A stretch of 64,000 nucleotides of DNA from Bacteroidota bacterium (GCA_039714655.1 JBDLIX010000004.1:21758-85757); one strand, 5' to 3'; counted from the first letter of the stretch, positions 5,654-28,754 are shown. Numbers and translations: made by a program. The notes: generated by a model from the letters alone, not told the origin.

Positions 5654-6028
5654 ATGGATAGATTAGAGTTTCAACCCACTCAGAAAACACCATACGTATT
5701 GCTGGATCCTTCCGGGAAAATTAAATTCAAAGGAAGGTCCATTCCGGAGGATGTATCTCTGTTTTATGAAGATATACTCGACTGGATCATTGCATATGCC
5801 TCATCGCCATCCTCCAATACCGAAGTGGATATTGAGATGGAGTACCTGAACAGCGGGACGTCCAAATATATGCTGAGGATATTAAAAAAGCTGAAAGAGG
5901 TTGATAATGATGGCTATGACCTGAAAATCAACTGGGTGTATGAGGAAGGTGATGATGATATCCTGGAGCGGGGTGAGTATTATGCTTCCATCCTGGACCT
6001 CAACATCAATTTCATTGAGATCGAGTAG
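5654..6028 (+). CDS. DUF1987 / SiaC-like partner-switch phosphoprotein
   Basis: 124 aa. FQPTQKTPYV..KGRSIPEDV..ILDWI, EYLNSGTSKYM and INWVYEEGDDD align by eye with P. aeruginosa SiaC (GTQSTP.., GDSYPEN, YLNTSSIK, LRWHYD). Its 3' end overlaps the convergent gene by 17 nt. Confidence 0.75.
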   Translation: MDRLEFQPTQKTPYVLLDPSGKIKFKGRSIPEDVSLFYEDILDWIIAYASSPSSNTEVDIEMEYLNSGTSKYMLRILKKLKEVDNDGYDLKINWVYEEGDDDILERGEYYASILDLNINFIEIE

Positions 6029-7124
6029 TTTTTATCTTCATAATATTCCTGCTTTTCTGCAACACATCTCCCAAATGTTTCCAATAGGCCTTGTGAAAGG
6101 TATATGAATCGGTATTTTTGATGGCTTCCTGGAAGTTGATAGTGCTATTACAGGTACTGGGATGTTCGATGGAGGGATCAAACAGGCCCGGTTTCTCAGG
6201 ATGGAATTGAACTCCGAACACATGCGGGTAACGATCATGTTCGATGGCCTCGATTATCTTTCCGTCCATTGAGGTTGCAGCAATTACCCAACCTTTGCCC
6301 AACTTTTCAAGAGCCTGATGATGTGAACTGAGCACCAGGGGTTCTGACTTACTCTTAAATCCAATTCCTCTGGTCAGCAGTGCTCTCTTTTCCAACTTGA
6401 CGTGATGAAAATGATAGGAGGTAGGAGCTTCGCAACCGCTATTTACCTTATCAGCATAATTCCTGTGCATCTGGTCAGGTGGTAGTAAGAGAATATCCTC
6501 GGCAATCCAGATTCCAAACATTTCCGTGGGGATGTCCTGTACCATCGTTCCGCCGGTCGCCACATTCAGCGTTTGCATTCCCAGGCAGATGCCACTGATC
6601 AGATATCGCTTCTCCTGCTCCATAAAGGGCTCCCATGTGAGGTTCTGGGAGCCGCCCAGCAGGTGAAACAGATAGGATGCCTCGCAATAGTGTCTGAATG
6701 GATCTGTCACCGAAGTCAAAAGGTGAACAGGTTCGTTATAAACGGCCGGGGGGATATCCGGTCCACCCATAAATAGCGCCCCTTTTGAGATGCTGAAAAG
6801 GTGTTTGAACTGGCTGGAGCAGGTGTTCTCTCCAAAAAGATTCCCGGGATTAAGCGACCCTTTGATTCCCCGAATACTTACATGTTGATCCTGATGAAGT
6901 TCAATGTAAGCCCTGGCCTTTTCATAGTCATAGGTCTCCTGCTCATGATAGACTCCCAGGAGATGATAACCATCCATGTTGAAAATGCCTTCGTCAATCA
7001 GATGTTGAACCTCCTCCAGGTTGTATGCAGTGGGATGGAATAACAGAAGTGTATCCTGACCATCCACACTCTGAATGGAGCATAACAGCAACAGGGAGAA
7101 GAGCGTGACGACTTTTAGCTTCAT
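6012..7124 (-). CDS. Secreted class-I glutamine amidotransferase-like / peptidase C26 (gamma-glutamyl hydrolase family)
   Basis: 370 aa with a signal peptide (MKLKVVTLFSLLLLCSIQSVDGQ). The nucleophile elbow is GICLGMQ and the His motif is GVQFHPE. Its ATG overlaps the upstream gene's TGA (ATGA at 7121-7124). Confidence 0.8.
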   Translation of the reverse strand: MKLKVVTLFSLLLLCSIQSVDGQDTLLLFHPTAYNLEEVQHLIDEGIFNMDGYHLLGVYHEQETYDYEKARAYIELHQDQHVSIRGIKGSLNPGNLFGENTCSSQFKHLFSISKGALFMGGPDIPPAVYNEPVHLLTSVTDPFRHYCEASYLFHLLGGSQNLTWEPFMEQEKRYLISGICLGMQTLNVATGGTMVQDIPTEMFGIWIAEDILLLPPDQMHRNYADKVNSGCEAPTSYHFHHVKLEKRALLTRGIGFKSKSEPLVLSSHHQALEKLGKGWVIAATSMDGKIIEAIEHDRYPHVFGVQFHPEKPGLFDPSIEHPSTCNSTINFQEAIKNTDSYTFHKAYWKHLGDVLQKSRNIMKIKTTRSQ

Positions 7125-9448
7125 TTGAGCATGGAGGTGAGTTTTTGTATGAACTGGTTCAGGTTGTCGCGGGACTCATCATCCAGATTTTTAAAACTGA
7201 CATTTCCCTCCTGAACCTCTTGCAGGAAGTTGGAAGCCAGAACGGCCCTCGAGTAATTATTGTCTTTAAGGTAATCAGAGTTTCTTACCGTGATACCCTC
7301 CCGGACTTTTACTACATATTTTTTGAAATCGATGGTGGAGAAGAGATCCTCTGCATCCTGGAAATCATCCAGAAACATCATCTGCTCCTTGGCCAGGTCA
7401 ACTTTGTTATCGAAATGCTCTCTCATCATTGTTTCGTGAACCGACCGTTCTTCAGAATTTCCAAAATTGAGGATGATATATTCCAGGCCCCACCCAATGA
7501 GAATATTGACCATCATGGGGATACTCTCTGCTCCTGAGGCAGGCAGGAAATAACACTCCTTTTCAAATCCGGTAAGCGCAACAATGGTCTTCAGGAAATA
7601 GTAGGTGGCCAGGTCCTTTACAACTACATTATTGAAAGATTTGATAATCTCCTGCTGGTTGAGTCTGGCACCCATGGTAGAATAGATGGGCGATAATGTA
7701 TCGGCTGTGGCTGATTTGAGGGAACGCGCACTGTAGACCAGTGTTTCACTTTTCATATCGTCTTCGACGGCACGCTGTACAGCCAGGATCCTGTAGAGTT
7801 TGTTCACATCGATCAGATGAGGAGAGTGGGTGGTGTAAATGATCTGAATCTGCTCCTTAATATCGTCAAACACTTCCAGCACATCTTCCTGTGCCCTTGC
7901 ATGCAGACTTACTCCTGGTTCATCAATGAGCAGAATTTTATTCCTCTTACTTTTATCAATGGCGGTAGCCTTAAGTTCCAGAAAGAAAGAGAGAAACCAC
8001 CTGACACCCCGGCTTCGTTGCTTGGGATAGAGGCGCTCTTGTTCATCCTTGATCCAGAACTCGATGAATGGTTTGCCACTTTTCTCAGGATTGGTATGGT
8101 CATAGTGAGAAAGTTCAAAATTGATCTTGATCTTGTTTTTCTTGCCCACATTCTGCCTCCAGAAATCCTGGAAATTAAGGGTAAGTTCACCATTCAGATT
8201 CTCAATTTTCTGCTTCAGAATCCGGCTGGATGGCTGCTGGAAAAAGGAGTACTCCAGTCCAGTGATGGTCAGAAAATTGATGGCTGCCTTGTAGCCTTCG
8301 GCACGCTTATTGGCACGGATAATATCTTCCAGATCAATGCGGTTGGGCAGGAGGGAACCGAAATCTTCAAATAATTCAAAATCAGGAATGATCTTAAAGA
8401 TCTCTTCGGCCAGTTCCCTGGAGCTGTAGAATTTATTTCGTGATTCAATCTCCTTCTTTGCCGCTGTCACAGCGCTTTCAATGGTAATTCCGTCAAATAC
8501 GAATTCAAGTGCCAACAGTTGGACATCATACTCTTCCTGCAATTGAGATATCTCCTTTTTTAGCCTTTCAATGTCGGTTCGATAGATCTCTTCCTTGATC
8601 TCTGCAGCCCTTTGTTCCTTTTCAGTCGGATACATCCCGGTCATCTGAAGGATCTGTTTCAGATTCTCCTGGGCAAGGGTAAGTACTTCTTTTTTTTCAG
8701 ATATCTGAACTTTGATCTCCTCATGTTTGTTGCAGGCTTCTCTTTTTTCACCCAGTGCATCCAGGATATCCTTCTTCTCTTCCTGTTTGGTTAATTTCTG
8801 TTCCAGGGTCTGCTTCAGTTTCACTTGCATCTCCTCCTCCTGTCCCAGCTCTTTTCTTATATCCTCTTTATTATTCCGGGCAGAAAGCTTTCGGATATTG
8901 CGCTTTAATTCATTCATGCGGAGCTTAATGGACTCGACCTTCTCCCGGGTCCATTCAACTTCATCCTGAGCCTTGTTCAGAGTTTTTGATGCAGCAGCAA
9001 TATTCTGGTTAAGGTTTTCCAGATTTTCCAGAACTTCTATTTCCCGTTGTTTGATCTGGTCCTCAGATGCATTGAAAACTTCCTGCAACTCATCACCCAT
9101 CACCATGAGAGAGTCCATATCGTTCTCCCACCGTCTGGATAATGAGATTGTTTCAATGGTACGGATCAGCTTTCGGATTTCCGGAGTCAACCTTTTTTTA
9201 TCAATTCTATTTTCAATTTCATCAAATTGGAATGAGAACCGGCAGGTGACGTCGGGAAGTGAGAGGTCACTCCGGAGCATGTCTTCAATGAGGTTTCCAT
9301 CGTGGAATGTCTTGAGTCCTTCAAGGATGGATGTTTTTCCTGATTCATTCTGCCCAATGAGGCTGGTAATATTGTCATGGGCTAATTGGTGCCACCCCGT
9401 ATCCACAACCGATCTGAAATTTTGAATTCTGAAAGCAATTAACTTCAT
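7121..9448 (-). CDS. ABC-type (AAA_15/AAA_21/OLD-like) ATPase with a long coiled-coil insertion and a Toprim-like C-terminal region
   Basis: 775 aa. Walker A is IGQNESGKTS, Walker B/D-loop is LLIDEPGVSLH and the H-loop is YTTHSPHL. About 200 Lys/Glu-rich heptad residues lie between Walker A and B. The C-terminal block is VVVKDLATYYF...FLPASGAESI...EYIILNFGNSEE. Confidence 0.7.
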   Translation of the reverse strand: MKLIAFRIQNFRSVVDTGWHQLAHDNITSLIGQNESGKTSILEGLKTFHDGNLIEDMLRSDLSLPDVTCRFSFQFDEIENRIDKKRLTPEIRKLIRTIETISLSRRWENDMDSLMVMGDELQEVFNASEDQIKQREIEVLENLENLNQNIAAASKTLNKAQDEVEWTREKVESIKLRMNELKRNIRKLSARNNKEDIRKELGQEEEMQVKLKQTLEQKLTKQEEKKDILDALGEKREACNKHEEIKVQISEKKEVLTLAQENLKQILQMTGMYPTEKEQRAAEIKEEIYRTDIERLKKEISQLQEEYDVQLLALEFVFDGITIESAVTAAKKEIESRNKFYSSRELAEEIFKIIPDFELFEDFGSLLPNRIDLEDIIRANKRAEGYKAAINFLTITGLEYSFFQQPSSRILKQKIENLNGELTLNFQDFWRQNVGKKNKIKINFELSHYDHTNPEKSGKPFIEFWIKDEQERLYPKQRSRGVRWFLSFFLELKATAIDKSKRNKILLIDEPGVSLHARAQEDVLEVFDDIKEQIQIIYTTHSPHLIDVNKLYRILAVQRAVEDDMKSETLVYSARSLKSATADTLSPIYSTMGARLNQQEIIKSFNNVVVKDLATYYFLKTIVALTGFEKECYFLPASGAESIPMMVNILIGWGLEYIILNFGNSEERSVHETMMREHFDNKVDLAKEQMMFLDDFQDAEDLFSTIDFKKYVVKVREGITVRNSDYLKDNNYSRAVLASNFLQEVQEGNVSFKNLDDESRDNLNQFIQKLTSMLK

Positions 9449-9458
9449 GTTGCCTGGT

Positions 9459-10265
9459 TTAAACGAATTTAATGCCGAAAATCAAAATATCATCCACCTG
9501 GAACTCATCACCTCTCCATGCAGTAATCACTTTATCAAGTTCGTCGCGTTGTTTCTCCATGGGTTGGTTTGATATTCCAATGAGCAACTCTTTCAATGGG
9601 CCGTATTTGAATTTCTTGTTCTGAGGTCCGCCAAATTGATCCGCATAGCCATCAGAAAATATGTATACGATATCGCCGGGTTTTAGTTGCAAATTATGGC
9701 TTGTGAAGGACTCCTCCTCAATGGCATTGATACCCACAGGCATTTTATCGGCCTTGATTTCGGTGAGGACATTTTTGCGTATATGATAGAGTGGATTGTT
9801 GGCTCCGGAATATTGTAACTCCAGGGTTTTCGGATTGAATACACAAAGTGCCATATCCATGGCATCTTTGTTTTCCAGTTCATGCCCCTTTTGATGGAGT
9901 GCTCTCATAACCCGCTCACGAAGCAGGTTTAGGATCCTGCTTGATTTTACCGGACCCCGGGTGCTGAGGATCTCATTCAGGAATGATACGCCCATGATGC
10001 TCATCAGGGCTCCGGGTACTCCATGTCCGGTACAATCACCCGCTGCTGCTACTATGTATTCCTCTTTCCGTGAGCAGTAATAAAAATCTCCACTTACAAG
10101 TTCCCTTGGTTTATGAAGTACAAAGAAATCATGCAATATGTTCTCCATATACTTCTGGTCCGGTAGCACAGCCCTTTGTATAAAACTGGCGTATTTAAGG
10201 CTGGCCATCAGCTCCCTGCGTTGTATGAGCAGGGTTTCCCTGGAGAGCTTAGATTCTTCTTTCAA
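9459..10265 (-). CDS. Stand-alone PP2C-family Ser/Thr phosphatase (SpoIIE domain)
   Basis: 268 aa with SGDFYY, GDCTGHGVPGALMS, FSDGYADQFGG and DDILIFGI. It is a clear paralogue of the C-terminal domain of the upstream gene. The TTG start overlaps the upstream TGA (TTGA). Confidence 0.85.
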   Translation of the reverse strand: MKEESKLSRETLLIQRRELMASLKYASFIQRAVLPDQKYMENILHDFFVLHKPRELVSGDFYYCSRKEEYIVAAAGDCTGHGVPGALMSIMGVSFLNEILSTRGPVKSSRILNLLRERVMRALHQKGHELENKDAMDMALCVFNPKTLELQYSGANNPLYHIRKNVLTEIKADKMPVGINAIEEESFTSHNLQLKPGDIVYIFSDGYADQFGGPQNKKFKYGPLKELLIGISNQPMEKQRDELDKVITAWRGDEFQVDDILIFGIKFV

Positions 10266-13200
10266 TGTTCACCCATTCTTAGTCCCATGACAAGGATATC
10301 ATCAATCTGACTGATTTCTCCCATCCATCCCAGCAGCACCTTTTCCAATGAAGCACCCTGTTCCTTCATGGGAACTGATTGCAATTCGAGGATTAGCTTT
10401 TTAAAATTTTTTGACATAAATTTCTTTCCCTGTGGTCCGCCAAACTGGTCCAGGAATCCATCCGAGAACAGATAAATACTATATCCTTCATCCTTAAAAG
10501 AGGTAGCAGTAAAGGGGAGTGTTTTTTCCGAGATCCCAATGGGCATCTGGTCTGCCCGAATTTGCAACAGCAGGTTCTTATCATCATGAATAGATCCCCT
10601 GGGCAGCTCAAGCTCCTCTCCCTTATTCAATTTTGTCTTTTCATTCCGTTTCAGTTTCCTTACCAGGTAGAGCGGATTGTAGGCACCTGAAAACTGAAAC
10701 TCATGTGTGTTAATGTCGATGGAAACCATTGCCAGGTCCATTCCATCCTTGGTCGATTCTTCAATGCTTTTTCCCGATTGCTTTAGCGAGGTGATGACGT
10801 GTTCCCGCAAATGCTCCAGTATCTGATCTGTACTGGTGATCTCAGCTTTGATCACAATCTCATCCAGAAAAGTCATTCCCAGCATGCTCATGAATGCTCC
10901 GGGTACACCATGACCGGTGCAATCGGAAGCGACAATGATCAGTTTTTCATTTTTCAATCCCATCCAGTAAAAATCACCACTTACAATATCACGGGGCCGA
11001 AACAGAATGAAATGCTCCATGTTGTGGTCGTCCATGAGACGATCGGGTGGCAGCAGGGCACGCTGGATCCGGCTGGCATATTCAATACTGTCGGTAAGCT
11101 CCTCCTTCTGTTTCCTGATCTCTGCAGTTCTCTCCTCGATGATCCCTTCCAGCCTCAGATTTTCCTGTTTAAGTCTTCGGGTATAAAGTTTGATGATGAT
11201 GTACACCAATAATCCGGAAAGGAGGATGTATGTGATGATGGCTGGAATCGAGGCATACCATGGTCGAAGAATGGTGAAGGTGTAAAAAGCCGGGAGGCTT
11301 TCATCACCATACACATTGATGGCTTTCACATGGATGGTGTAATCACCAAAAGGAAGATTCGTAAAATCTTTATATGCTGCACCATCCCACTCCGACCATT
11401 CTTTATCAAATCCTTCCAGCATATAGCTATATCTTAATTCCTTCTCCTGCTCGAAAAATGGAGCGGCCCATTTGAATTCGATGTTGTTGTATCGGTGCCT
11501 GATCATGGGCCGGGCAGCTTCAGCCTGCGTGAGTTGAATCGTGTATTTCCCCAAGCCATCTTCAATGAAATTGGTTCCATTGAAAAGCAGGGAGTCGCTG
11601 TTGATAGAAACACTTCGTATAAGGGTCCGGAAGGGCAGTGTATCGTTTCTGGTAAATGATTTGTCAAAATGGTATAGTTCATTGGATTTACCGAACCATA
11701 CACCTCCTTCAGGATCACTGAAGATTACATCTGTAGAGAGGTTTTGCAAACGTTGAAATGGTTCTGCCCGGACCACCTCCAGCCTGTTTTCCTTTTTGCG
11801 TGCCACCAGTTCTCCCCATCCAGAATATTCATTCTCAAAAGAGTACCAGTAATATCCCTCCCGGTCTTTGATAAAGGTCATGATAAAATTGCGGCCCGGT
11901 GGAAGCACACTGTTATGAATGGTGTCCCGGTAGATGGTGTCCCTGAAGTAATTGTAACGGTAGAATCCATTTGCGGTTCCCAGTAATATCTCTTCCGAGT
12001 CGGGATCTATAAATACCTGGTTCTTTTCAACAGCCGGCAGTCCATCTTCCTCAGAAAAGAATTTCATAGTGGCATCATTGATGCGTGAGATATCGATGCG
12101 AATTACCCTACTGGTAGTGCTGGTCCACAGGTATCCGTATTTATCAATTCCCATTTTTTGAATTACAGCATTAGGCAAATCTTCCACCCTCATGATCTCT
12201 TTCCACCTTCCTCTGGTATATTGCAAACCGACTATCTGTATTCTGCCCGTGTAAATGATATCGGGGCGTTTGGGATCCTGGACCAGGTGCCGGCCAACGT
12301 ACTCTTCTCGTTCCTGCAATCCTTCGTGTGGATTGATAACCAGGTCCACCAGGGAGGAGACGTTCAACTGTTTGTCCACCACGAAGGTCATGTATTCGGA
12401 GGAGGCCAATAGAAGCTCCACATTTGGAGAGGGTTTGAACAGATGCAAGTGCCAGATCGTTTGATCACGTGTTTCGGGTAGGGAAATAAAATCTGTGGAG
12501 GTGGAAGAGGAGTTTTTATAATAGAGTCCGCTGAATGTGGCAACAAAAAGCTTTTTGTTAAATACGACAATATCACTTATGAACCCTTCAAGTCCGGATG
12601 CTTCAGTGAATTGTCTGAATGGATTATGAGTCTCCAGTTTGCTTACACCCATCCAGTTGGTGATCCAGAGCGGACCTGATCCTTTCAATTGATCATTGGA
12701 GTAGACATAGGTGATGTCCTCATCGATCAATCCCTCCGACTTGGAAAGAATCTCACTGGCCTTTCCATTCCGTTTAAGAATCACCAGTCCATTATATAGA
12801 CTGGACACTACGAAATCATCGTTCAGTGGCCGAATATAGGTGATGACTCCATTCCTGAAATGGTCCTGAAGACCATGATCGAGAAATGAATGATCCACTG
12901 TTCCTCTTTTCATATCAAACAGGTATACCCCCTGCTCGGCAGTCCCGGCAAGCAGCCTGTTATCATCGTATTTCACCAGCCCGGTAATGACCATCTCCTT
13001 GAAAAAATCACCACCTTTGACTGTTTTAAATGCATCATTTTCAAACTTCATCAATCCGTTACCAAAATCTGAAACGTAGAGGGTACCGTCAATAATATAA
13101 GAGAAATAGGTATACTCAGGCGTCTCCAGGATGGAGAGTTGATCCATCTCCCGATTGAAAATGAAAATTTTGGAAAAGGTACAGAAGTAGACTTCTCCAT

Positions 13201-13621
13201 TGTGGTAATAGGTTCTCCACACTGCCGTGAATGGATACTTCTCCTGGTCAATGGTATCAGAAAGGGATCGGTAATGCATATTCCCTATGTGATCAGGGGC
13301 CAGGTAACCAAATTCAGATTCTCCCCCCACATAGACCACTCCGTCATCTCCGGTTTCCAGTGACCTGATAATAGGATCATTGGGAATCGGAATGCTGCGC
13401 CACTCCACACCGTCATATTCAAGTACACCTTTGTCATTGTTCCCAATGTATATGACACCCCTGGCATCTTGTGTAACACACCAATTCTGCTCGCTTCCCC
13501 CTGTAATGTTATGAGGGTAGTTGGTGATCATGGGAACTCCATTATTATTGGGCTGAGCCAGGAGAGTGCCAGATGCCGTTAAACACAAGAGCAATGATAT
13601 GACAGCAGTACGAATACCCAT
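10262..13621 (-). CDS. Periplasmic two-component-regulator-propeller / Y_Y_Y sensor fused through one TM helix to a PP2C (SpoIIE) phosphatase
   Basis: 1119 aa with a signal peptide and repeated propeller blades. The Y_Y_Y region is LRYSYMLEGFDKEWSEW..YTIHVKA and the TM helix is IPAIITYILLSGLLVYIII. A coiled coil is followed by SGDFYW, SDCTGHGVPGAFMS, FSDGFLDQFGG and DDILVMGL. Confidence 0.85.
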   Translation of the reverse strand: MGIRTAVISLLLCLTASGTLLAQPNNNGVPMITNYPHNITGGSEQNWCVTQDARGVIYIGNNDKGVLEYDGVEWRSIPIPNDPIIRSLETGDDGVVYVGGESEFGYLAPDHIGNMHYRSLSDTIDQEKYPFTAVWRTYYHNGEVYFCTFSKIFIFNREMDQLSILETPEYTYFSYIIDGTLYVSDFGNGLMKFENDAFKTVKGGDFFKEMVITGLVKYDDNRLLAGTAEQGVYLFDMKRGTVDHSFLDHGLQDHFRNGVITYIRPLNDDFVVSSLYNGLVILKRNGKASEILSKSEGLIDEDITYVYSNDQLKGSGPLWITNWMGVSKLETHNPFRQFTEASGLEGFISDIVVFNKKLFVATFSGLYYKNSSSTSTDFISLPETRDQTIWHLHLFKPSPNVELLLASSEYMTFVVDKQLNVSSLVDLVINPHEGLQEREEYVGRHLVQDPKRPDIIYTGRIQIVGLQYTRGRWKEIMRVEDLPNAVIQKMGIDKYGYLWTSTTSRVIRIDISRINDATMKFFSEEDGLPAVEKNQVFIDPDSEEILLGTANGFYRYNYFRDTIYRDTIHNSVLPPGRNFIMTFIKDREGYYWYSFENEYSGWGELVARKKENRLEVVRAEPFQRLQNLSTDVIFSDPEGGVWFGKSNELYHFDKSFTRNDTLPFRTLIRSVSINSDSLLFNGTNFIEDGLGKYTIQLTQAEAARPMIRHRYNNIEFKWAAPFFEQEKELRYSYMLEGFDKEWSEWDGAAYKDFTNLPFGDYTIHVKAINVYGDESLPAFYTFTILRPWYASIPAIITYILLSGLLVYIIIKLYTRRLKQENLRLEGIIEERTAEIRKQKEELTDSIEYASRIQRALLPPDRLMDDHNMEHFILFRPRDIVSGDFYWMGLKNEKLIIVASDCTGHGVPGAFMSMLGMTFLDEIVIKAEITSTDQILEHLREHVITSLKQSGKSIEESTKDGMDLAMVSIDINTHEFQFSGAYNPLYLVRKLKRNEKTKLNKGEELELPRGSIHDDKNLLLQIRADQMPIGISEKTLPFTATSFKDEGYSIYLFSDGFLDQFGGPQGKKFMSKNFKKLILELQSVPMKEQGASLEKVLLGWMGEISQIDDILVMGLRMGEH

Positions 13622-13761
13622 GCGTGTGACTTATAGCTTCCTAAAATATTGAAAATATATGGTTATGCCTCTATGAAAAAAATCTTTTTTTCCACCAACT
13701 ATGCAACCTAAAACCGATAATAAGGTTTACTATTTAGCCGGGAATTTGTTTAATTGCAACC

Positions 13762-16700
13762 ATGCGCAGACGGATCAGTATATATTCAATACTCTTTTGC
13801 CTGGTTTTTGGGACAATAGTTACAACTGCTCAGCAGTCAGATATAAAGCTTTCAACAGGAGGAGAGGCATTTGAACATACGCTTGTTTTCGAGGGGAATC
13901 GGTTGATTTTCCGGGGGGAGATCGATCACCTTACATTGACCTCATTTGAGGATGGAGATGATTTCGTCTCTATTCAGATGCCCGGATATGTTTTATCCGG
14001 TGACACCGGTGTCCCCGCACTCCCGGAAAAGAGAATGCTGTTTGAAGCAGAGGAAGGGGAGATAGCCCGGATCCGAATCGACCAGATAGATTCGGTGATT
14101 TTCGATCTGCAACAGCTGGGTATTGATGCAAGTATCTCCCCATCTATGCCTTCGGTCAGAAAAGGCGCACCTGCTGAAAATATTGTTGAGAATGGAGTGG
14201 CCTATGATGCCGATGAATGGGTAGGCGGACCCGTGGTGACAGTTGCGTATGAAGGGAAGATGAGGGGGCTGGCCATGAGCACGCTCCATTTTAATCCCAT
14301 TCGTTACAACCCAGTCAGGAACCTGGTTAAGGTCTATTTCAATGTTACTTGCACCATTGAAACCATGGCTCAGGTGAACCGAAAGCATATTGCTTCACGA
14401 GCGTTTGAAAGGCTCTTCCAACGGGTAATCAGACGCAATGATCAACCGGAGAAAAAAGCACTTTTTGTTGAAGAGCCCATGACCATGGTGATCCTTTCCG
14501 ATACCATGTTCAGGGAGACACTGCAGCCCTTTATTCAGTGGAAATCACGCAAAGGCTTCAAGGTGGTGGAAGCTTACAGGCAGGAGTCCGGGGTGGGAAG
14601 CTCCAGAGAGACCATAAAGTCCTATCTGGAATCACTCTATACCCAACCTTCAGTCGGTATAGCCCCACCCACCTATTTATTGATTGTGGGGGATGTAGAG
14701 CATATTCCATTGTCACAGTCCGGCGGACAAATCACAGATCTCTACTACACCACTTTTGATGGGAAAGATGATTACATACCCGATCTGTTTTACGGAAGGA
14801 TCTCGGTGAGCAATGTGGAACAATTGCAGGCGGTACTGGACAAGGTTCTGGAGTACGAACAGTATCAGTTTCCCGATCCCTCTTTCCTGAATGAGGCAGT
14901 GTTGATCGCCGGGGTGGATGGTACATTTGCCAGCAGGTATGGCAACGGTCAGATCAACTATGCACATGACCATTACATCAACGAAAACAGCGGATTCAAT
15001 GCCCATACATTTCTTTACCCCGGGTCGGATACGAGTGACACCCGGATCCTGGAGCTTATTTCCGGAGGAGTAGGTTTTGTCAATTATACCGGGCATGGAC
15101 TCTATGACAGGTGGATTGATCCAACTTTTCATCAGAATGACATTGATGGTTTGGAGAACCTGGGGAAATACCCGGTGATGATCGGGAACGGTTGTGAAAC
15201 CAATGTATTTAACCTGGGAGAGTGTTTTGCCGAGGCATTGATACGTGCACCAGGAAAAGGAGCTCTGGCCTATATTGGTTGCACCAACGATTCTTATTGG
15301 GATGAAGACTATTTCTGGGCGGTCGGTGTGGGCCCTATTGTGGCCGAGCCCGTTTATGAGGAGTCCTCCCAGGGATATTACGACAAGGTGTTCCATTCTC
15401 ATGGGGAGTCCCGCGAACTCTGGACCCCTTCTTTGGGGGAGATGGTATTTGGAGGGAACATCGCTGTCCAGCAGAGCAACAGTTCACGGAAAAAGTTTTA
15501 TTGGGAGATCTACCAGCTGGCAGGGGACCCATCCATTGTTCCGTGGTTTTCTCAGCCCAATACCAGGGAGGTATGGCACCCTGCAGTGCTGCCAATCGGG
15601 TCAAACCGAATGGATATTAGCTGTGCTCCTTTCGACTATGTGGCTCTGTCGCGAAACGGAGTGCTCCTTGATGCACTTCATGCCTCTGAAGCGGGAACTG
15701 CCACACTCTATATCTCCGATACCATCAGCAGCGGAACCCTGGAGCTTTTGGTTTCTGGCGATGCGTACATTCCCTTTACCGGTGAGGTGGTGTTAGGTAT
15801 TCCTCCGGATCCCTACCTTGATCTGGCACGGTACAACCTGTCCGATGAGTCGGTGGAGAAGGATGGTTTGATCGGTCTTGAAGAACAGTTTTCACTTGAC
15901 ATGCAATGGATCAACCGGGGTGGGGCAGATTTGGAAAATGACACACTGGTACTTTTTACAGATCATAAGGATATTGCCGTCCTGGATTCTATGGTGGTTG
16001 TAGAGAGAGTGGGAGCCGGTGATACGGTAACAATTCAAAGTGTTTTCAGGATCGGGACCGGACCAGGTGTTGCTGACCAGGAATCTTTACGATTTGGATT
16101 GTATTGGAAAGGGGATCAGGAAGGCCGGACGGTTTACCTGAAGGAGAAAGCATACGCACCCCTCCTAATTTCCGAAGGAATTGTCTGGGATGACAGACCC
16201 TCTGGGAACGGGAATGGGATTGCAGAGCCAGGAGAGTGGTTGGTCTGCCAATGGACCATCCGTAATGTCGGTCATTTCAGGACCGGAAAATTGACCGGAA
16301 CAGAGAATCCGGAAGGAATCTCCGTTTTTGAAAGGATTGAATTTGATCCTCTTCCTGTACTGGAACCAGAAGATGGCATTGTGATGACCTTCCGGGCACA
16401 GATGGCAGGTACAGTGAAGGATTTCCAAAAGGCCGGCCCTTTTATGGCAGGTGATCGGTATGTTACTGTACAGGATAGTTTCTTGCTCTTTTCAGGCCGA
16501 CATTATGAAGATTTTAGCAACCAACCGGATCGCTATCCTTTCATCAACAGTTCAGATTCGCCCTGGAAAATCGATAACCAGACCTACACCTCTTCACATT
16601 ATTCCCTCCGCTCGGGGGCAATTCCTGACTATGGTGTGAGTGAGTTAACTGTGGAATTTGAGACAAGTGATGTGGATACCCTCTCCTTTGCGTATCGGGT

Positions 16701-17826
16701 TTCATCGGAAGTGGGATATGATTACCTGCAGTTTTATGTGGATTCTGTATTGTATAGCAGCTGGTCAGGCGAGAAGGGTTGGAACCGTTACTTTACAACC
16801 CTTGAACCGGGTATTCATGAGATAACCTGGTCTTACCTGAAAGACCAGTCCATGAGCCGGGGCGAGGATGCCGCATGGATCGATGATATCGTTTTTCCGG
16901 CATCGGCATTTCGTGGGAGCGATCTTTCATTGATGAGGATCATTCAACCAGTATCCGGTCCCTGGCTTACCAATCAGGAGGAAGTCATATTGCTTGTGAG
17001 GAATGCCGGAATGGATACCATTCACCGGTTTTCAACCGCTGTTTCTCTAGACGATCAGCCCAGAAGCTTCGACACTATTACGACTCCAATTCTGCCTGGT
17101 GAAGCGTTGAAATTTATTGTTTCAGAGTTATTTGACCTTTCCAACCTGGGTAATTACAGGTTACATACACAGATTGTTTCTGATTCGGATGAATACTATG
17201 GTAATAACCAACTGGAGATGGAGGTGATGCGGTATGATTACCCCGACCTGGCATTGTCGGTTTTGCAGATAGATGAAGTTGACGGGGTACATACAGATGT
17301 AGTAATTGCCATTGAGAATGAAGGGAATACCTGGATTGACTCTCTCCGGTTTGAGTCGTGGATTGACGGGGCCATGGTTAAATCAGGTACCGTGTTCATT
17401 GGATTGGAACCCGGACTGGGACTTATTGATACCTTCAGGTTGGTTGATAGTACCAGCAACCTCCTTACCACAGGTTTTTATGACTACCTTATCAGGTCGG
17501 CTGAAACGGACAGCGCCTTGTTCAACAACGAGGTGTCCGGAGTTTTTTACTGGCATGCGTTAGGAATGCAGCCAACGGATCCCTTCGATGGATTGCTGCT
17601 CTATCCAAATCCTGCCATGGAAGGCTTCTACCTGATATTGCCTCAGCCGGCCCATGGAGCAAAGAGCGTTGAACTGGTCAACATCCATGGACGGGTGGAA
17701 GCCATCTTTGAGATTGAAAAGGGTTCAGCAATGCTTTATATACCAGTGTTGTCATTGGCTCCAGGGAGGTACATGCTGAAAATTGATGGCATGAAAGCAT
17801 CTCTGCCTGTGGTTATTACAGATTAG
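13762..17826 (+). CDS. Gingipain-family cysteine peptidase C25 with accessory beta-sandwich domains and a T9SS C-terminal sorting domain
   Basis: 1354 aa with a signal peptide. The C25 core has VNYTGHG (His) and IGNGCETN (Cys). One domain (YDYLQFYVDSVLYSSWSGEKGW..WIDDIVF) resembles choice-of-anchor-J/MAM. The last ~80 aa (LLLYPNPAMEGFYL...YMLKIDG) look like a Por secretion tail. Confidence 0.85.
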   Translation: MRRRISIYSILFCLVFGTIVTTAQQSDIKLSTGGEAFEHTLVFEGNRLIFRGEIDHLTLTSFEDGDDFVSIQMPGYVLSGDTGVPALPEKRMLFEAEEGEIARIRIDQIDSVIFDLQQLGIDASISPSMPSVRKGAPAENIVENGVAYDADEWVGGPVVTVAYEGKMRGLAMSTLHFNPIRYNPVRNLVKVYFNVTCTIETMAQVNRKHIASRAFERLFQRVIRRNDQPEKKALFVEEPMTMVILSDTMFRETLQPFIQWKSRKGFKVVEAYRQESGVGSSRETIKSYLESLYTQPSVGIAPPTYLLIVGDVEHIPLSQSGGQITDLYYTTFDGKDDYIPDLFYGRISVSNVEQLQAVLDKVLEYEQYQFPDPSFLNEAVLIAGVDGTFASRYGNGQINYAHDHYINENSGFNAHTFLYPGSDTSDTRILELISGGVGFVNYTGHGLYDRWIDPTFHQNDIDGLENLGKYPVMIGNGCETNVFNLGECFAEALIRAPGKGALAYIGCTNDSYWDEDYFWAVGVGPIVAEPVYEESSQGYYDKVFHSHGESRELWTPSLGEMVFGGNIAVQQSNSSRKKFYWEIYQLAGDPSIVPWFSQPNTREVWHPAVLPIGSNRMDISCAPFDYVALSRNGVLLDALHASEAGTATLYISDTISSGTLELLVSGDAYIPFTGEVVLGIPPDPYLDLARYNLSDESVEKDGLIGLEEQFSLDMQWINRGGADLENDTLVLFTDHKDIAVLDSMVVVERVGAGDTVTIQSVFRIGTGPGVADQESLRFGLYWKGDQEGRTVYLKEKAYAPLLISEGIVWDDRPSGNGNGIAEPGEWLVCQWTIRNVGHFRTGKLTGTENPEGISVFERIEFDPLPVLEPEDGIVMTFRAQMAGTVKDFQKAGPFMAGDRYVTVQDSFLLFSGRHYEDFSNQPDRYPFINSSDSPWKIDNQTYTSSHYSLRSGAIPDYGVSELTVEFETSDVDTLSFAYRVSSEVGYDYLQFYVDSVLYSSWSGEKGWNRYFTTLEPGIHEITWSYLKDQSMSRGEDAAWIDDIVFPASAFRGSDLSLMRIIQPVSGPWLTNQEEVILLVRNAGMDTIHRFSTAVSLDDQPRSFDTITTPILPGEALKFIVSELFDLSNLGNYRLHTQIVSDSDEYYGNNQLEMEVMRYDYPDLALSVLQIDEVDGVHTDVVIAIENEGNTWIDSLRFESWIDGAMVKSGTVFIGLEPGLGLIDTFRLVDSTSNLLTTGFYDYLIRSAETDSALFNNEVSGVFYWHALGMQPTDPFDGLLLYPNPAMEGFYLILPQPAHGAKSVELVNIHGRVEAIFEIEKGSAMLYIPVLSLAPGRYMLKIDGMKASLPVVITD

Positions 17827-17827: not shown

Positions 17828-18298
17828 CTACTTCATTAGTTGAACATCGAAGATCCCGCCCTTTACGATGTAACAGGGGGATCCGCACTCCACTCCCGCA
17901 TCGTAAAGATGCATATGATCTGAATCAAATGCAATAATCGTTTGATTTCCTGAACTGTAGGTGGCTTCTACCGTGTATTCACGATCTATTTCCGAATAGA
18001 GAAAAAATTCCTCGGTGGTGGCGGTATCTTGCCAGTCGATCACTCCCTCCTCATAACTTCCCTTGTAAAAGGTTAGGGGAACCGAATCGTTTTCTGCATT
18101 GATGGTCACATAAATGATTAATTTGGCACTGTCAGGAGCATATCCATAGCAATCGTTGCAATTCACTTCAATGATCCAGTCCTCCGGTTCACAGCCCATG
18201 AAATTGCCTGATAACACCAGAAGAAAAGATGTGACCAGCGTAATGGGGATCCACGATCCCCGGGCTTTAATATTCAATCTCTTTATAAACATTGTCAC
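17828..18298 (-). CDS. Small hypothetical lipoprotein
   Basis: 156 aa with a hydrophobic N-terminus ending in LSGNFMGC (lipobox-like). It overlaps the upstream ankyrin gene by 32 nt. I recognised no family. Confidence 0.5.
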   Translation of the reverse strand: MTMFIKRLNIKARGSWIPITLVTSFLLVLSGNFMGCEPEDWIIEVNCNDCYGYAPDSAKLIIYVTINAENDSVPLTFYKGSYEEGVIDWQDTATTEEFFLYSEIDREYTVEATYSSGNQTIIAFDSDHMHLYDAGVECGSPCYIVKGGIFDVQLMK

Positions 18299-19712: not shown

Positions 19713-20067
19713 GTTTTACTTTAAATCCTTTTTCTTCCAGAAGTGACAGGATCCGATCTCTGAAATCACCCTGGATCAGGATCTCCCCATTCTTCGCAGA
19801 ACCTCCTACACCACATTTGCTCTTCAACTCTTTTGCCAGGGATTTCAGATCCTCCTCGGTTCCTTCGAATCCTTCAATCAGTGTCACACTCTTGCCTTTT
19901 CGATTCTTTCGGTCGAGCCTTACATAGAGTCTCTGCTGATTTGGAGGAAGTGTCTCCTGATCATCCTGCTGCTCCGATTCAAATTGAAACTCCGGATTGG
20001 TGGAGTAAACCATACCCAGCCGTTTTTTCCAGTCGTTCTCCATGGGACAATTAATTACCCAGTTCAA
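19699..20067 (-). CDS. yciH: SUI1/eIF1-family translation initiation factor homologue (YciH-like)
   Basis: MVYSTNPEF...RKNRKGKSVTLIEGFEG..LKSLAKELKSKCGVGGS matches the SUI1 fold signature. The true start may be the ATG at 20043 (MENDWKK), which would remove the 17-nt overlap with the ABC gene. Confidence 0.8.
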   Translation of the reverse strand: MNWVINCPMENDWKKRLGMVYSTNPEFQFESEQQDDQETLPPNQQRLYVRLDRKNRKGKSVTLIEGFEGTEEDLKSLAKELKSKCGVGGSAKNGEILIQGDFRDRILSLLEEKGFKVKRAGG

Positions 20068-24810: not shown

Positions 24811-25281
24811 CTAAAGGCTAAAGCGGTAACGAATAGAAACACCAAAATCAAGTAAATCAATGTCAAAAAAGCGGTATATGTTCATCATCGGTTTCCAATC
24901 CACGCCGAAATTAATGGGCAGATCCCTGACGTTGTATTCAATTCCGGCAATAACTGATAATCCAGTGGATAACTCTCCGTCCCAGTTGCCTCCGAAAGCT
25001 CCTCCGCCAAAATAGGCCAGCCAGCGCCTGTTCTGCAACGGTTCAAGATGATATTCATACAACAGTGACAGGTTGAAACCGTGCTGGTTATACAGCACAT
25101 CACCTTCTATGGCTGCCATCTGGTGCCTGAAAAATCCTTTATAAGTTATTCCGCTGGAGTAACCGGCCCGTATCCCCAGAGAGTGTTCATAGGGTTGAGC
25201 TGCCAGTTCTGAGGAAACTATGATTATCAGCATGAAAAGGGTGGTTCGTATCATCATAATCAAATTAAATAGCTCATTCAA
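24811..25281 (-). CDS. Small outer-membrane beta-barrel-like protein
   Basis: 156 aa. The likely start is at MMIRTT, and the signal peptide ends in AAQ. It shows an alternating aromatic/Gly pattern (GIRAGYSSGITYKGF..., GVSIRYRFSL). The family is not identified. Confidence 0.5.
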   Translation of the reverse strand: MNELFNLIMMIRTTLFMLIIIVSSELAAQPYEHSLGIRAGYSSGITYKGFFRHQMAAIEGDVLYNQHGFNLSLLYEYHLEPLQNRRWLAYFGGGAFGGNWDGELSTGLSVIAGIEYNVRDLPINFGVDWKPMMNIYRFFDIDLLDFGVSIRYRFSL

Positions 25282-28663: not shown

Positions 28664-28726
28664 ATATTACCAACCCTAATCAAACTAAAACAAACTGCTT
28701 ATGAAATGAAACACGAACTAAAAAAA

Positions 28727-28754
28727 TCAGGAAAGTGCAGCAACACTTTCCTGA
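28727..28754 (+). other. Perfect 11-bp stem / 6-nt loop hairpin between fecR and susC, with no U-tract
   Basis: TCAGGAAAGTG-cagcaa-CACTTTCCTGA, read directly from the sequence. It is followed by agtaatctagc. Confidence 0.6.

What the first reader, a model, noticed from the sequence alone, without database searches (positions are those of the whole stretch)
6012..13621. Tightly coupled four-gene operon: glycan-type periplasmic sensor-PP2C, PP2C, coiled-coil ABC/OLD-like ATPase, secreted C26 amidohydrolase
Seen in sequence: all four genes are on the minus strand. Their junctions are a TTGA start/stop overlap (10262-10265), a 10-nt gap (9449-9458) and an ATGA overlap (7121-7124). That leaves no room for internal promoters or terminators. 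Established knowledge: Reg_prop plus Y_Y_Y modules are the periplasmic ligand sensors of Bacteroidota hybrid two-component systems. SpoIIE/PP2C outputs belong to partner-switching cascades. Walker-A / coiled-coil / Walker-B ATPases with OLD- or Toprim-like tails are typical of DNA-surveillance and anti-phage proteins such as Gabija GajA, PARIS AriA and Septu PtuA. Inference: I know of no described system in which an envelope sensor phosphatase and a second phosphatase are translationally coupled to such an ATPase and an exported amidohydrolase. It could be a phospho-regulated defence or stress module, or a new envelope-signalling output. This is my top candidate for the undescribed system in the window.
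Basis: partly seen in the sequence, partly recalled or inferred. Interest (0 to 1): 0.75.

Follow-up and report, generated by a model that had tools for sequence, protein, structure and literature searches.

The report
Phosphatase paired with nuclease-dead OLD-type ATPase
The four-gene cluster is real, but its conserved core is an undescribed gene pair, a minimal SiaA-type protein phosphatase plus an OLD-family ATPase that gained a long coiled-coil arm and lost its nuclease site, which behaves like a core signalling module and not like a phage-defence system.

Summary
In detail: four minus-strand genes, with the stated junctions and domains.

The four genes are not one evolutionary unit. Across 149 related loci, only the small PP2C and the ATPase travel together.
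- 77 of 79 distinct long-form ATPases (~240-aa coiled-coil insert) have a PP2C gene directly upstream, in at least 7 genomic contexts.
- 0 of 21 short-form relatives do.

The ATPase is an OLD-family ABC-ATPase/Toprim protein. Its ATPase motifs are intact. All three Toprim metal-A ligands are replaced (E377/D431/D433 of Thermus OLD become K/F/N), as in most PP2C-linked relatives.

In the window's clade, the pair diverges about as slowly as TsaD and tracks it. It sits among housekeeping genes and is absent from viral, phage and plasmid collections.

The sensor-PP2C and the C26 hydrolase are dispensable clade-specific additions. A very conserved SiaC-family phosphoprotein lies convergent to the operon. 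No kinase or GGDEF output was found in the window.

Best reading, largely inferred: the ATPase is a trans-acting regulatory subunit of the PP2C, possibly feeding a SiaC-type partner switch. The held literature does not describe this pairing.

The parts
10262..13621 (-). Sensor phosphatase (1119 aa). Layout: signal peptide, periplasmic Reg_prop beta-propeller region, Y_Y_Y domain (aa 726-784), one TM helix (about aa 790-812), helical linker, SiaA-type PP2C domain (about aa 870-1119) with intact metal-binding motifs. It is a clade-specific, dispensable member of the locus.
   Evidence: Pfam Y_Y_Y 2e-13, SpoIIE 3e-13, Reg_prop 6e-7. NCBIfam SiaA model 2e-48, below its full-length cutoff. Motifs SGDFY, DCTGHG, FSDG and IDD are read from the translation. 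Absent in L007, L008 and L024; mean 59.5% identity across relatives. Retained next to SiaC in L135/L136, where the PP2C-ATPase pair is missing.
9459..10265 (-). Minimal cytoplasmic SiaA-type PP2C phosphatase (268 aa, TTG start). It is a catalytic domain plus a short N-terminal helix, with no sensor domain. It is one half of the conserved two-gene core.
   Evidence: Pfam SpoIIE 9e-22. NCBIfam SiaA 1e-47 over model positions 404-657. Its only PDB relative at E<=1e-3 is the P. aeruginosa SiaA PP2C domain, 6k4e, 3.6e-30. Catalytic motifs are >=95% conserved in 67 partner PP2Cs. A PP2C lies directly upstream of 77 of 79 long-form ATPases.
7121..9448 (-). OLD-family ABC ATPase (775 aa): a split ABC head, an inserted coiled-coil arm, a degenerate Toprim-like domain and a helical tail. 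It is the other half of the conserved core.
   Evidence: AAA_15 and AAA_21. Partial PADLOC hits to AriA, Old, PtuA and GajA models. Best PDB sequence hit is the Thermus scotoductus class 1 OLD, 6p74, 7e-6. AF2 model pLDDT 86.8. Top Foldseek hits are GajA, SMC heads and Ts OLD. Walker A K38, signature S479, Walker B D509-E510 and H-loop H541 are present in all full-length aligned relatives.
8429..9097 (-). Coiled-coil arm of the ATPase (aa 118-340), an antiparallel helical hairpin inserted in the ABC head. Its length is fixed at about 237-242 aa in the PP2C-linked relatives, but its sequence is poorly conserved.
   Evidence: AF2 helices 119-187, 191-231, 233-269, 276-318 and 323-337. Insert lengths. 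Identity is 62% in the close clade and 17% in distant clades, against 94% and 72% for the adjacent lid/C-head. Presence of the insert coincides with the PP2C partner.
7364..7639 (-). Degenerate Toprim-like domain of the ATPase (aa 604-695). The fold is kept, but the three metal-A ligands of OLD nucleases are replaced: K611, F662 and N664.
   Evidence: Alignment to 6p74 places K611, F662 and N664 opposite E377, D431 and D433. Those residues are the metal-A ligands needed for cleavage (PMC7049728). The beta-alpha repeat at 607-693 is seen in the model. Family survey: short forms keep E..DxD; 66 of 77 PP2C-linked long forms have lost at least one ligand.
6012..7124 (-). Exported class-I glutamine-amidotransferase-like hydrolase (Peptidase C26, 370 aa) with a signal peptide and an intact Cys/His-Pro-Glu catalytic site. 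It is an accessory gene and not part of the conserved core.
   Evidence: Peptidase_C26 1.7e-26 and GATase 1e-15. GICLGMQ and QFHPE are conserved in 47 orthologues. Absent in L005, L016, L022, L094 and L131-L134; mean 63.8% identity.
5654..6028 (+). SiaC-family (DUF1987) regulatory phosphoprotein (124 aa). It is convergent with the operon and overlaps the C26 3' end by 17 nt. It is co-directional with tsaD, 92 nt downstream of it. It is the candidate substrate of the two PP2Cs.
   Evidence: Pfam SiaC 4e-32. NCBIfam SiaC 1e-16, below cutoff. P. aeruginosa SiaC 6kko 5e-11. 'YLNSGTSK' aligns with PaSiaC 'YLNTSSIK'. The N66/S67 positions equivalent to N67/T68 are invariant in 115 orthologues. It is the most conserved gene of the region, at 87.5% mean identity.
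13622..13761 (.). 140-nt divergent intergenic region between the sensor-PP2C gene and the C25 (gingipain-like) peptidase gene. It is the presumed promoter region of the operon.
   Evidence: Sequence read. It is the only sizeable non-coding gap upstream of the four genes. It has no exact TAnnTTTG motif, only near matches such as TATATTTT. The promoter assignment is an inference.

Best explanation
The locus is modular, and its core is a two-gene signalling module.

Core module:
- One gene encodes a minimal SiaA-type PP2C Ser/Thr phosphatase: a catalytic domain with no sensor domain of its own.
- The other encodes an OLD-family ABC ATPase. It has acquired a ~240-residue antiparallel coiled-coil arm. 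In this clade it has lost the Toprim metal-A site, so it very probably no longer cuts DNA by the canonical OLD mechanism.

Proposed mechanism (inferred):
- The two proteins form a complex.
- The ATPase acts as the trans-acting sensor or regulatory subunit of the phosphatase. The coiled-coil arm docks the PP2C, and the ATP-driven head cycle gates it.

Proposed wider circuit in the window's clade (more weakly inferred):
- A second input is fused upstream in the same operon. This is a membrane phosphatase whose periplasmic Reg_prop/Y_Y_Y domain senses an envelope or glycan cue.
- Both phosphatases act on the adjacent, extremely conserved SiaC-family phosphoprotein, at invariant Ser67, the equivalent of PaSiaC Thr68.
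- Unphosphorylated SiaC then binds and switches a target that is not encoded in this window.
- This would resemble RsbU and RsbP converging on RsbV in Bacillus.
- The exported C26 hydrolase is an accessory passenger.

Shown here: gene order, domain identities, intact catalytic motifs, loss of the Toprim ligands, the strict PP2C/long-arm association, vertical housekeeping-like inheritance, and modular presence or absence.

Inferred: the physical complex, the direction of regulation, SiaC as substrate, and the identity of the signal.
For: 1. Strict pairing. 77 of 79 distinct long-insert ATPases with upstream sequence have a PP2C 1-260 nt upstream on the same strand. 0 of 21 short-insert relatives do. 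The pair recurs in at least 7 unrelated contexts in which no other gene is shared.
2. The PP2C has no regulatory domain, and its catalytic motifs are >=95% conserved. Its only PDB relative is the SiaA phosphatase domain.
3. ATPase motifs are present in all full-length aligned relatives, while the Toprim ligands E377/D431/D433 are K/F/N here. They are lost in many different ways in 66 of 77 PP2C-linked proteins, which implies selection on a non-nuclease function.
4. The coiled coil keeps its length but not its sequence, as expected of a structural arm.
5. Housekeeping-like evolution. Mean identity is 78% for the PP2C, 75% for the ATPase and 79% for TsaD. ATPase identity tracks TsaD identity (rho 0.73). 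Neighbours are metabolic or envelope genes. No long form occurs in viral contigs, phages or plasmids.
6. SiaC link. Two SiaA-type PP2C genes lie within 8 kb of a SiaC-family gene. Its phospho-acceptor motif is invariant in 115 orthologues and it is the most conserved gene of the region. The adjacency persists down to 67% SiaC identity and 38% TamB identity. SiaC stays with either phosphatase alone (L135/L136 and L007/L008).
7. Precedents. PaSiaC binds a coiled-coil stalk and is switched by Thr68 phosphorylation (PMC8457831). Cran1 is a vertically inherited OLD-family ATPase with a non-defence role (PMC12796447).
Against: - No direct evidence of a PP2C-ATPase complex. A multimer prediction could not be run.
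- Outside the window's clade, no SiaC-family gene lies within about 10 kb of the pair. The SiaC link therefore rests on essentially one evolutionary lineage in which the whole block (TamB-TsaD-SiaC-operon) is syntenic.
- SiaC is co-directional with tsaD and may simply belong to that transcription unit.
- No SiaB-type kinase, other protein kinase, GGDEF or STAS gene is present in the 64-kb window. The partner switch is therefore incomplete locally.
- 11 PP2C-linked long forms keep an intact metal-A triplet. The ancestral pair may have been a nuclease system, and the metal-B site was not assessed.
- The opposite regulatory direction, with the PP2C dephosphorylating the ATPase, explains the pairing equally well.
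Confidence: 0.5

Rival explanations
1. The ATPase is the output and the PP2C is its regulator. The coiled-coil OLD-like ATPase would carry out a DNA-, chromosome- or other macromolecule-related job, in an SMC/Rad50-like or Cran1-like manner. It would be switched by Ser/Thr phosphorylation, which the co-encoded PP2C removes. SiaC and the sensor-PP2C would be unrelated neighbours, or a separate Sia-type pathway.
For: The strict pairing and the housekeeping-like conservation fit this equally well. The fold resembles SMC, Rad50 and GajA heads with an arm. Cran1 shows that an OLD-family ATPase can have a cell-cycle or chromatin role. The pair exists without any nearby SiaC in all distant clades. 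L135/L136 keep SiaC and the sensor-PP2C without the pair, so SiaC does not need the ATPase.
Against: No kinase is encoded with the pair in any of the >=7 contexts. The Toprim site, which would act on DNA, is lost in most members. No DNA-binding partner such as a kleisin, Mre11 or helicase is adjacent. The PP2C is specifically SiaA-like, and that type acts on small SiaC-type switch proteins.
Confidence: 0.25
2. It is an anti-phage defence system of the OLD/PARIS/Gabija/Septu kind. The ABC ATPase would sense infection, and the PP2C (and perhaps the C26 hydrolase) would act as effector or regulator.
For: The ATPase belongs to the OLD family and gives partial PADLOC hits to AriA, Old, PtuA and GajA. 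Short-form relatives with an intact Toprim occur on viral contigs and plasmids and in variable contexts. 11 PP2C-linked long forms still have an intact metal-A triplet, so a defence origin is plausible.
Against: In the window protein all three metal-A ligands are replaced. No PADLOC model hits the PP2C, the sensor or C26. There is no AriB, GajB or PtuB-type partner. The genes are inherited vertically at the rate of TsaD in a fixed chromosomal position. Neighbours are housekeeping genes in all contexts seen. Long forms are absent from viral contigs, phage records and plasmids.
Confidence: 0.12
3. It is a chance operon of functionally unrelated genes that share a promoter in one lineage.
For: The sensor-PP2C and C26 come and go. 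The tight junctions are not conserved. Within the close clade the whole neighbourhood is collinear, so synteny there carries little information.
Against: The PP2C-ATPase adjacency survives in at least 7 different contexts and down to 42-46% ATPase identity. It correlates perfectly with a structural feature of the ATPase. That is not compatible with chance for the core pair.
Confidence: 0.05

Closest known systems
Class 1 OLD family nucleases (P2 Old, Thermus scotoductus OLD, PDB 6p74)
   Same: An N-terminal ABC-type ATPase with the same motif set, followed by a C-terminal Toprim-fold domain. This is the best PDB sequence match (7e-6) and a top structural match. Short-form homologues of the window protein are solitary genes with intact E..DxD, like class 1 OLD.
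   Different: There is a ~240-aa coiled-coil arm inserted in the head. The metal-A ligands E377/D431/D433 are replaced by K/F/N. There is an obligate PP2C partner gene. Inheritance is vertical and housekeeping-like, and the gene is not found on mobile elements.
ABC-ATPase scaffold/sensor defence systems: PARIS (AriA/AriB), Septu (PtuA/PtuB), Gabija (GajA/GajB)
   Same: An ABC ATPase of the AAA_15/AAA_21 type, with helical insertions, is encoded next to a single partner enzyme. PADLOC models of AriA, PtuA and GajA hit the head motifs. GajA and PtuA are among the top fold matches. The proposed logic, an ATPase that holds or gates a partner enzyme, resembles AriA-AriB; this is my own knowledge plus PMC11464382, which was listed but not read.
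   Different: The partner is a PP2C phosphatase and not a Toprim nuclease, HNH nuclease or helicase. There is no AriB, PtuB or GajB gene nearby. The ATPase's own nuclease site is dead. The genomic behaviour is not that of a defence island.
SiaABCD partner-switching system of Pseudomonas aeruginosa
   Same: Both PP2C domains are SiaA-type (6k4e 3.6e-30; the NCBIfam SiaA model is the best hit). One of them is membrane-anchored with an extracytoplasmic sensor, like SiaA. A SiaC/DUF1987 protein with a conserved Asn-Ser/Thr acceptor motif is adjacent.
   Different: No SiaB kinase and no SiaD diguanylate cyclase are present in 64 kb. There are two phosphatases and not one. The sensor domain is Reg_prop/Y_Y_Y. 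SiaC is convergent and not in the operon. An OLD-family ATPase is interposed.
Cran1 (clade U11 OLD-family ATPase of Sulfolobales)
   Same: An OLD-family ATPase that is conserved, vertically inherited and apparently not involved in antiviral defence (PMC12796447). It is a precedent for the domestication of this family.
   Different: Cran1 is archaeal, retains potent nickase activity and has no PP2C partner or long coiled-coil insert reported in the abstract and the one results section read.
Bacteroidota hybrid two-component systems (HTCS) with Reg_prop/Y_Y_Y periplasmic sensors
   Same: The periplasmic sensor module of the 1119-aa protein has the same domain types and topology: signal peptide, propellers, Y_Y_Y and one TM.
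   Different: The cytoplasmic output is a PP2C phosphatase. It is not a histidine kinase, receiver and AraC DNA-binding module, and no such domains were detected.
RsbU/RsbP-RsbV branch of the Bacillus subtilis sigma-B partner switch
   Same: This is a conceptual analogue only (own knowledge). Two PP2C phosphatases with different inputs converge on one small phospho-switch protein, and one of them depends on a separately encoded co-regulator (RsbT or RsbQ).
   Different: The switch protein here is DUF1987 and not STAS. The co-regulator is an ABC/OLD ATPase. No anti-sigma kinase or sigma factor is associated. The convergence is inferred and not shown.

Membership tests
OLD family nucleases | N-terminal ABC-type ATPase domain with Walker A, Walker B and H-loop | tested here: met
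   AAA_15 7e-22 and AAA_21 1e-16. K38, D509-E510 and H541 are present in all full-length aligned relatives.
OLD family nucleases | C-terminal Toprim-fold domain | tested here: met
   phmmer alignment of aa 505-690 to Ts OLD 6p74. A beta-alpha repeat at 607-693 appears in the AF2 model. 6p74 and GajA are among the top Foldseek hits. The Pfam Toprim_Old model itself gave no hit.
OLD family nucleases | Toprim metal-A ligands (Ts OLD E377, D431, D433) required for DNA cleavage | tested here: not met
   The aligned residues are K611, F662 and N664. The same KFN triplet occurs in 44 distinct relatives. The metal-B ligands were not reliably alignable.
OLD family nucleases | Metal-dependent nuclease activity | not testable with these tools
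   This needs purified protein.
PARIS (AriA/AriB) | AriA-type ABC ATPase | tested here: inconclusive
   PADLOC AriA model PDLC02979 scores 6e-22 over aa 1-546. Generic AAA_15-type models, Old, PtuA and GajA also hit. PDB AriA (8ux9) scores only 0.008, confined to the Walker B region.
PARIS (AriA/AriB) | Adjacent AriB Toprim-nuclease partner gene | tested here: not met
   The flanking genes are a PP2C and a C26 hydrolase. There is no such partner in any related locus.
Gabija / Septu | Adjacent GajB helicase or PtuB HNH nuclease partner | tested here: not met
   No helicase or HNH gene is next to the ATPase in the window or in the relatives.
SiaABCD partner switch | SiaA-type PP2C phosphatase | tested here: met
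   Met at domain level. 6k4e is the only PDB hit, at 3.6e-30. The NCBIfam SiaA model scores 1e-47 (small PP2C) and 2e-48 (sensor), both below the full-length equivalog cutoff of 700 bits. Neither protein is therefore an equivalog of SiaA itself.
SiaABCD partner switch | SiaC/DUF1987 phosphoprotein with a Ser/Thr acceptor at the T68 position | tested here: met
   Pfam SiaC 4e-32, above cutoff. 6kko 5e-11, with N66-S67 aligned to N67-T68. Invariant in 115 orthologues. The NCBIfam SiaC equivalog score of 60.9 is below its cutoff of 150.
SiaABCD partner switch | SiaB-type kinase encoded with the system | tested here: not met
   No kinase-type domain was found in any ORF of >=110 aa in the 64-kb window, nor among the called genes of L131-L136. 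The rest of the genome could not be searched.
SiaABCD partner switch | SiaD diguanylate cyclase (GGDEF) output | tested here: not met
   No GGDEF domain is present in the window.
Hybrid two-component systems (HTCS) | Periplasmic Reg_prop/Y_Y_Y sensor | tested here: met
   Reg_prop 6e-7 and Y_Y_Y 2e-13.
Hybrid two-component systems (HTCS) | Cytoplasmic histidine kinase, receiver and AraC-type HTH | tested here: not met
   Only SpoIIE/PP2C is detected C-terminal to the TM segment.
Peptidase C26 / class I glutamine amidotransferase-like hydrolases | Nucleophile-elbow Cys and His-(Pro)-Glu catalytic residues | tested here: met
   Peptidase_C26 1.7e-26, above cutoff. GICLGMQ and QFHPE are conserved in 47 orthologues. 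The substrate is unknown.

The most novel reading that the evidence does not exclude
A domesticated OLD-family defence ATPase has become the ATP-driven sensor subunit of a PP2C phosphatase. Its nuclease site is dead and its coiled-coil arm was gained together with the partner. In this Bacteroidales lineage the phosphatase would integrate a cytoplasmic signal with a periplasmic glycan or envelope signal, by converging with a sensor-PP2C on a SiaC-type phospho-switch. [quoted passage not shown] It would also be a new input branch for DUF1987 partner switching.
Probability: 0.25. Interest if true: 0.8.

Novelty: new variant of a known kind. Interest (0 to 1): 0.6.

Why it matters
- **OLD-family biology.** OLD-family and related ABC ATPases (Old, GajA, AriA, PtuA) are currently studied almost only as anti-phage nucleases or nuclease scaffolds. 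A large, vertically inherited clade would be different. It is always encoded with a PP2C phosphatase, gained a fixed-length coiled-coil arm, and repeatedly lost the nuclease metal site while keeping every ATPase motif. It would be a clear bacterial case of a defence-type ATPase re-used for cellular signalling, paralleling archaeal Cran1.
- **A testable question.** It would show directly how such ATPases transmit a signal to a partner enzyme without killing the cell.
- **Bacteroidota signalling.** It would add a Ser/Thr-phosphatase branch (periplasmic Reg_prop/Y_Y_Y sensor to PP2C, then SiaC) to a phylum whose glycan sensing is usually explained by HTCS and ECF-sigma systems.
- **Annotation.** 'ATP-dependent endonuclease of the OLD family' is probably a wrong functional label for these genes.

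Tried and rejected
- **PADLOC on all five proteins.** Only generic head-motif hits for the ATPase and nothing for the others. No known defence system could be assigned.
- **Search for the missing partner-switch components.** Pfam scans of essentially all window ORFs of >=110 aa found no kinase, STAS, GGDEF or anti-sigma kinase.
- **Search for a third conserved gene.** Clustering neighbours of the pair in distant clades, followed by Pfam on the recurrent ones, gave only lineage-specific housekeeping genes. A TPR-SpoIIE protein convergent to the pair in L109/L116 is noted but not interpreted.
- **The 241-aa ORF that replaces the pair in L135/L136.** It is not a remnant of the ATPase, the PP2C or C26.
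- **Rfam.** No riboswitch or other RNA family.
- **Promoter and terminator scans.** Uninformative: no Bacteroidota -7 motif inside the operon, but none upstream of it either.
- **Literature.** No paper in the held library describes a PP2C with an OLD/ABC ATPase pairing. One defence preprint mentions PP2C only in a figure legend about unrelated candidate systems.
- **Complex prediction.** A fused-chain or multimer AlphaFold prediction of the PP2C with the ATPase was considered.
- **Zinc hook.** An SMC/Rad50-like zinc hook at the tip of the arm was looked for by eye. There is no CxxC motif.

Full report
**1. Observation**

The junctions are a TTGA overlap, a 10-nt gap ('TAA accaggcaac ATG') and an ATGA overlap.

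Pfam confirms the domains:
- Sensor protein: Reg_prop, Y_Y_Y and SpoIIE.
- Small PP2C: SpoIIE.
- ATPase: AAA_15 and AAA_21.
- Hydrolase: Peptidase_C26.

No Bacteroidota -7 motif (TAnnTTTG) lies between 6121 and 14921 on either strand. Generic promoter-like and terminator-like sites are at or below the shuffle expectation. Rfam finds nothing. So one transcription unit is plausible but unproven.

The finding's coordinates and title do not include the convergent gene at 5654-6028(+). It is a SiaC/DUF1987-family phosphoprotein (Pfam 4e-32) that overlaps the 3' end of the C26 gene by 17 nt.

**2. What the proteins are**

*The two phosphatases.*
- Both PP2C domains are SiaA-type. The NCBIfam SiaA model is their best hit, at 1e-47 and 2e-48. 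This is below the full-length cutoff, so they are not SiaA equivalogs.
- The only PDB relative of the small PP2C at E<=1e-3 is the P. aeruginosa SiaA phosphatase domain, 6k4e, at 3.6e-30.
- The catalytic motifs (SGDFY, DCTGHGVPGA, FSDG..DQFGG, Q.DD) are >=95% conserved in 67 partner PP2Cs.

*The SiaC-like protein.*
- It matches PaSiaC (6kko, 5e-11).
- Its 'YLNSGTSK' aligns with PaSiaC 'YLNTSSIK'. The Asn and the Ser at the T68 position are invariant in 115 orthologues.
- In P. aeruginosa, SiaC binds the coiled-coil stalk of SiaD through N67/T68/S69, and phosphorylation of T68 blocks binding (PMC8457831).

*The ATPase.*
- It belongs to the OLD family. The best PDB sequence hit is the class 1 OLD of Thermus scotoductus (6p74, aa 505-690).
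- A confident AF2 model (pLDDT 86.8) shows four parts:
  - a split ABC head;
  - an antiparallel helical arm (aa 119-337);
  - a Toprim-like beta/alpha domain (607-693);
  - a helical tail.
- Its best fold matches are GajA, SMC/cohesin heads, Ts OLD, Rad50 and PtuA.
- The ATPase motifs are intact.
- The three metal-A ligands that Ts OLD needs for cleavage are E377, D431 and D433 (PMC7049728). They align with K611, F662 and N664.

*The C26 protein.* It has a signal peptide and conserved Cys/His-Pro-Glu catalytic residues.

**3. What is conserved**

A genome scan found 47 loci, all from uncultured Bacteroidales/Bacteroidia MAGs.

*Window's clade (ATPase 72-89% identical).*
- The whole neighbourhood is collinear: ankyrin protein, a small ORF, a variable C25 peptidase, sensor-PP2C, PP2C, ATPase, C26, then SiaC, TsaD and TamB.
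- The sensor-PP2C is missing in L007, L008 and L024.
- C26 is missing in L005, L016 and L022.

*Ten more distant loci (ATPase 42-46% identical).* Only the small PP2C and the ATPase remain adjacent, in several unrelated contexts.

*Exhaustive profile search.* It found 4132 relatives, 442 of them below 1e-30. They fall into two groups:
- short forms of about 570-660 aa with an insert of 20-120 aa;
- long forms of about 770-790 aa with an insert of 237-242 aa.

*Metagenome scan seeded with short forms.* Together with further look-ups, it gave 139 distinct ATPases in context.
- Of 79 long forms with at least 300 nt upstream, 77 have a PP2C gene directly upstream on the same strand.
- The two exceptions are L114 and L139. 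The L139 insert is not homologous, and that gene sits in a defence-like context with a CHAT-TPR gene.
- Of 21 short forms with at least 900 nt upstream, none has a PP2C. The Fisher test gives p of about 1e-19, but the loci are not phylogenetically independent.
- Short forms have no recurrent neighbour and keep E..DxD (17 of 21 are E-D-D).
- Among the 77 PP2C-linked long forms, only 11 keep the triplet. The rest have lost it in many different ways, such as KFN, EFN, EGH, EMN, ENT, QFN, DMN, SFN and PIQ.

*Coiled coil.* It keeps its length but not its sequence: 62% identity in the close clade and 17% in distant clades. The lid and C-terminal head are 94% and 72% identical.

**4. Defence or housekeeping?**

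- Over 40 loci, mean identity to the window is 87.5% for SiaC, 79.1% for TsaD, 78.4% for the PP2C, 75.1% for the ATPase, 63.8% for C26, 59.5% for the sensor-PP2C and 59.0% for TamB.
- ATPase identity tracks TsaD identity (rho 0.73). This is vertical co-divergence at the rate of an essential tRNA-modification gene.
- Neighbours in the other contexts are G6PD, DUF302, an exonuclease, OmpA/TPR proteins, adenylosuccinate lyase, permeases and a racemase.
- Viral contigs, phage records and plasmids contain only short or partial relatives with an intact Toprim and no PP2C.
- PADLOC hits only the generic head motifs of the ATPase and none of the other proteins.
- Cran1 of Sulfolobales is a published precedent for a vertically inherited, non-defence OLD-family ATPase (PMC12796447).

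**5. Modularity around SiaC**

- SiaC orthologues at 67-71% identity (L131-L134) still sit between TsaD and an ATPase/PP2C/sensor-PP2C operon. That ATPase is KFGN-type and 61% identical to the window's. These loci have no C26 gene.
- In L135/L136 the PP2C-ATPase pair is absent. An unrelated 241-aa exported ORF replaces it, while the sensor-PP2C and SiaC remain.
- In L007/L008 the sensor is absent, while the pair and SiaC remain.
- SiaC is therefore kept with either phosphatase. It cannot depend on the ATPase as its only target.
- Outside this lineage, no SiaC gene lies near the pair.
- No kinase, STAS, GGDEF or anti-sigma kinase domain is encoded anywhere in the 64-kb window.

**6. Interpretation**

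*Firm result.* The conserved unit is a two-gene module: a minimal SiaA-type PP2C plus a long-armed OLD-family ATPase. In this clade the module is a core chromosomal function that does not use the canonical Toprim nuclease chemistry.

*Most likely mechanism (inference).* The PP2C has no regulatory domain of its own, and the coiled-coil arm appears only where the PP2C partner appears. The ATPase would therefore be the trans-acting regulatory or sensor subunit of the phosphatase.

*Further inference, less secure.* In the window's lineage this cytoplasmic phosphatase and the periplasmic-sensor phosphatase would both act on phospho-SiaC. This is analogous to RsbU and RsbP acting on RsbV.

*Main rival.* The reverse direction: the PP2C controls a phospho-regulated ATPase that is itself the output.

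*Other readings.* A defence role is unlikely for this clade, but it is plausible as the evolutionary origin. The C26 hydrolase is best treated as an accessory passenger.

**7. Novelty**

No PP2C with OLD/ABC-ATPase pairing was found in PADLOC or in the held literature. I classify this as a new variant of a known kind: a PP2C-associated, coiled-coil-bearing and mostly nuclease-dead clade of the OLD family.

Noticed in passing
window 5654-6028 (+) and 6012-7124 (-): The SiaC-family gene and the C26 hydrolase gene converge and overlap by 17 nt at their 3' ends, so there is no room for a terminator between them. siaC lies 92 nt downstream of tsaD on the same strand and may be co-transcribed with it. 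TsaD-SiaC adjacency is kept in every related locus that extends that far.
   Followed up: partly
L135:10377-11102 (-) and L136:10377-11051 (-): In one lineage the PP2C-ATPase pair is replaced by a 224-241-aa exported protein. It has no Pfam family and no similarity to any gene of the window locus. The sensor-PP2C and SiaC stay in place.
   Followed up: partly
L109:4810-7158 (-), L116:8141-10513 (-): In another sub-clade of the pair (Toprim triplet E-G-H), a 780-790-aa TPR-repeat SpoIIE/PP2C protein lies convergent just downstream of the ATPase. This is a second, independent case of a sensor-type PP2C next to the pair.
   Followed up: partly
L139:968-2484 and 9196-14368 (context of P0143): An 804-aa relative has an intact Toprim triplet and a non-homologous 250-aa insert, and it has no PP2C partner. 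It sits near another AAA_15/AAA_21 gene with a 170-aa partner and a 1771-aa TPR-CHAT protein. This looks like a defence island, in contrast to the contexts of the PP2C-linked clade.
   Followed up: no
window 13762-17826 (+): The large gene divergent from the operon (1354 aa) corresponds to a Peptidase_C25 (gingipain-like) protein, which carries a T9SS Por_Secre_tail in the orthologous loci L133/L134. It is present in only some close relatives (variable).
   Followed up: partly
window 17828-18298 (-), 18267-19712 (-): A 156-aa ORF with no Pfam match, and a 481-aa ankyrin-repeat protein. Their gene order is conserved upstream of the locus in the close clade. Ankyrin-repeat proteins are uncommon in bacteria.
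   Followed up: no
window 26539-34339 (+) and 57464-60588 (+): An ECF sigma factor, a FecR anti-sigma protein, a SusC-like TonB receptor (with an STN domain) and a SusD-like protein form a trans-envelope signalling set. A second ECF sigma is followed by two tandem FecR-like genes. Both are ordinary for Bacteroidota, but they show that the window carries other envelope-sensing systems.
   Followed up: no
window 46256-48490 (-), 52843-54678 (+), 22270-23013 (-), 24811-25281 (-): Four ORFs of 744, 611, 247 and 156 aa have no Pfam family at the thresholds used.
   Followed up: no
window 20051-22237 (-): A Peptidase_C39 ABC transporter (bacteriocin or peptide-export type) lies next to a SUI1-family gene (19699-20067).
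   Followed up: no
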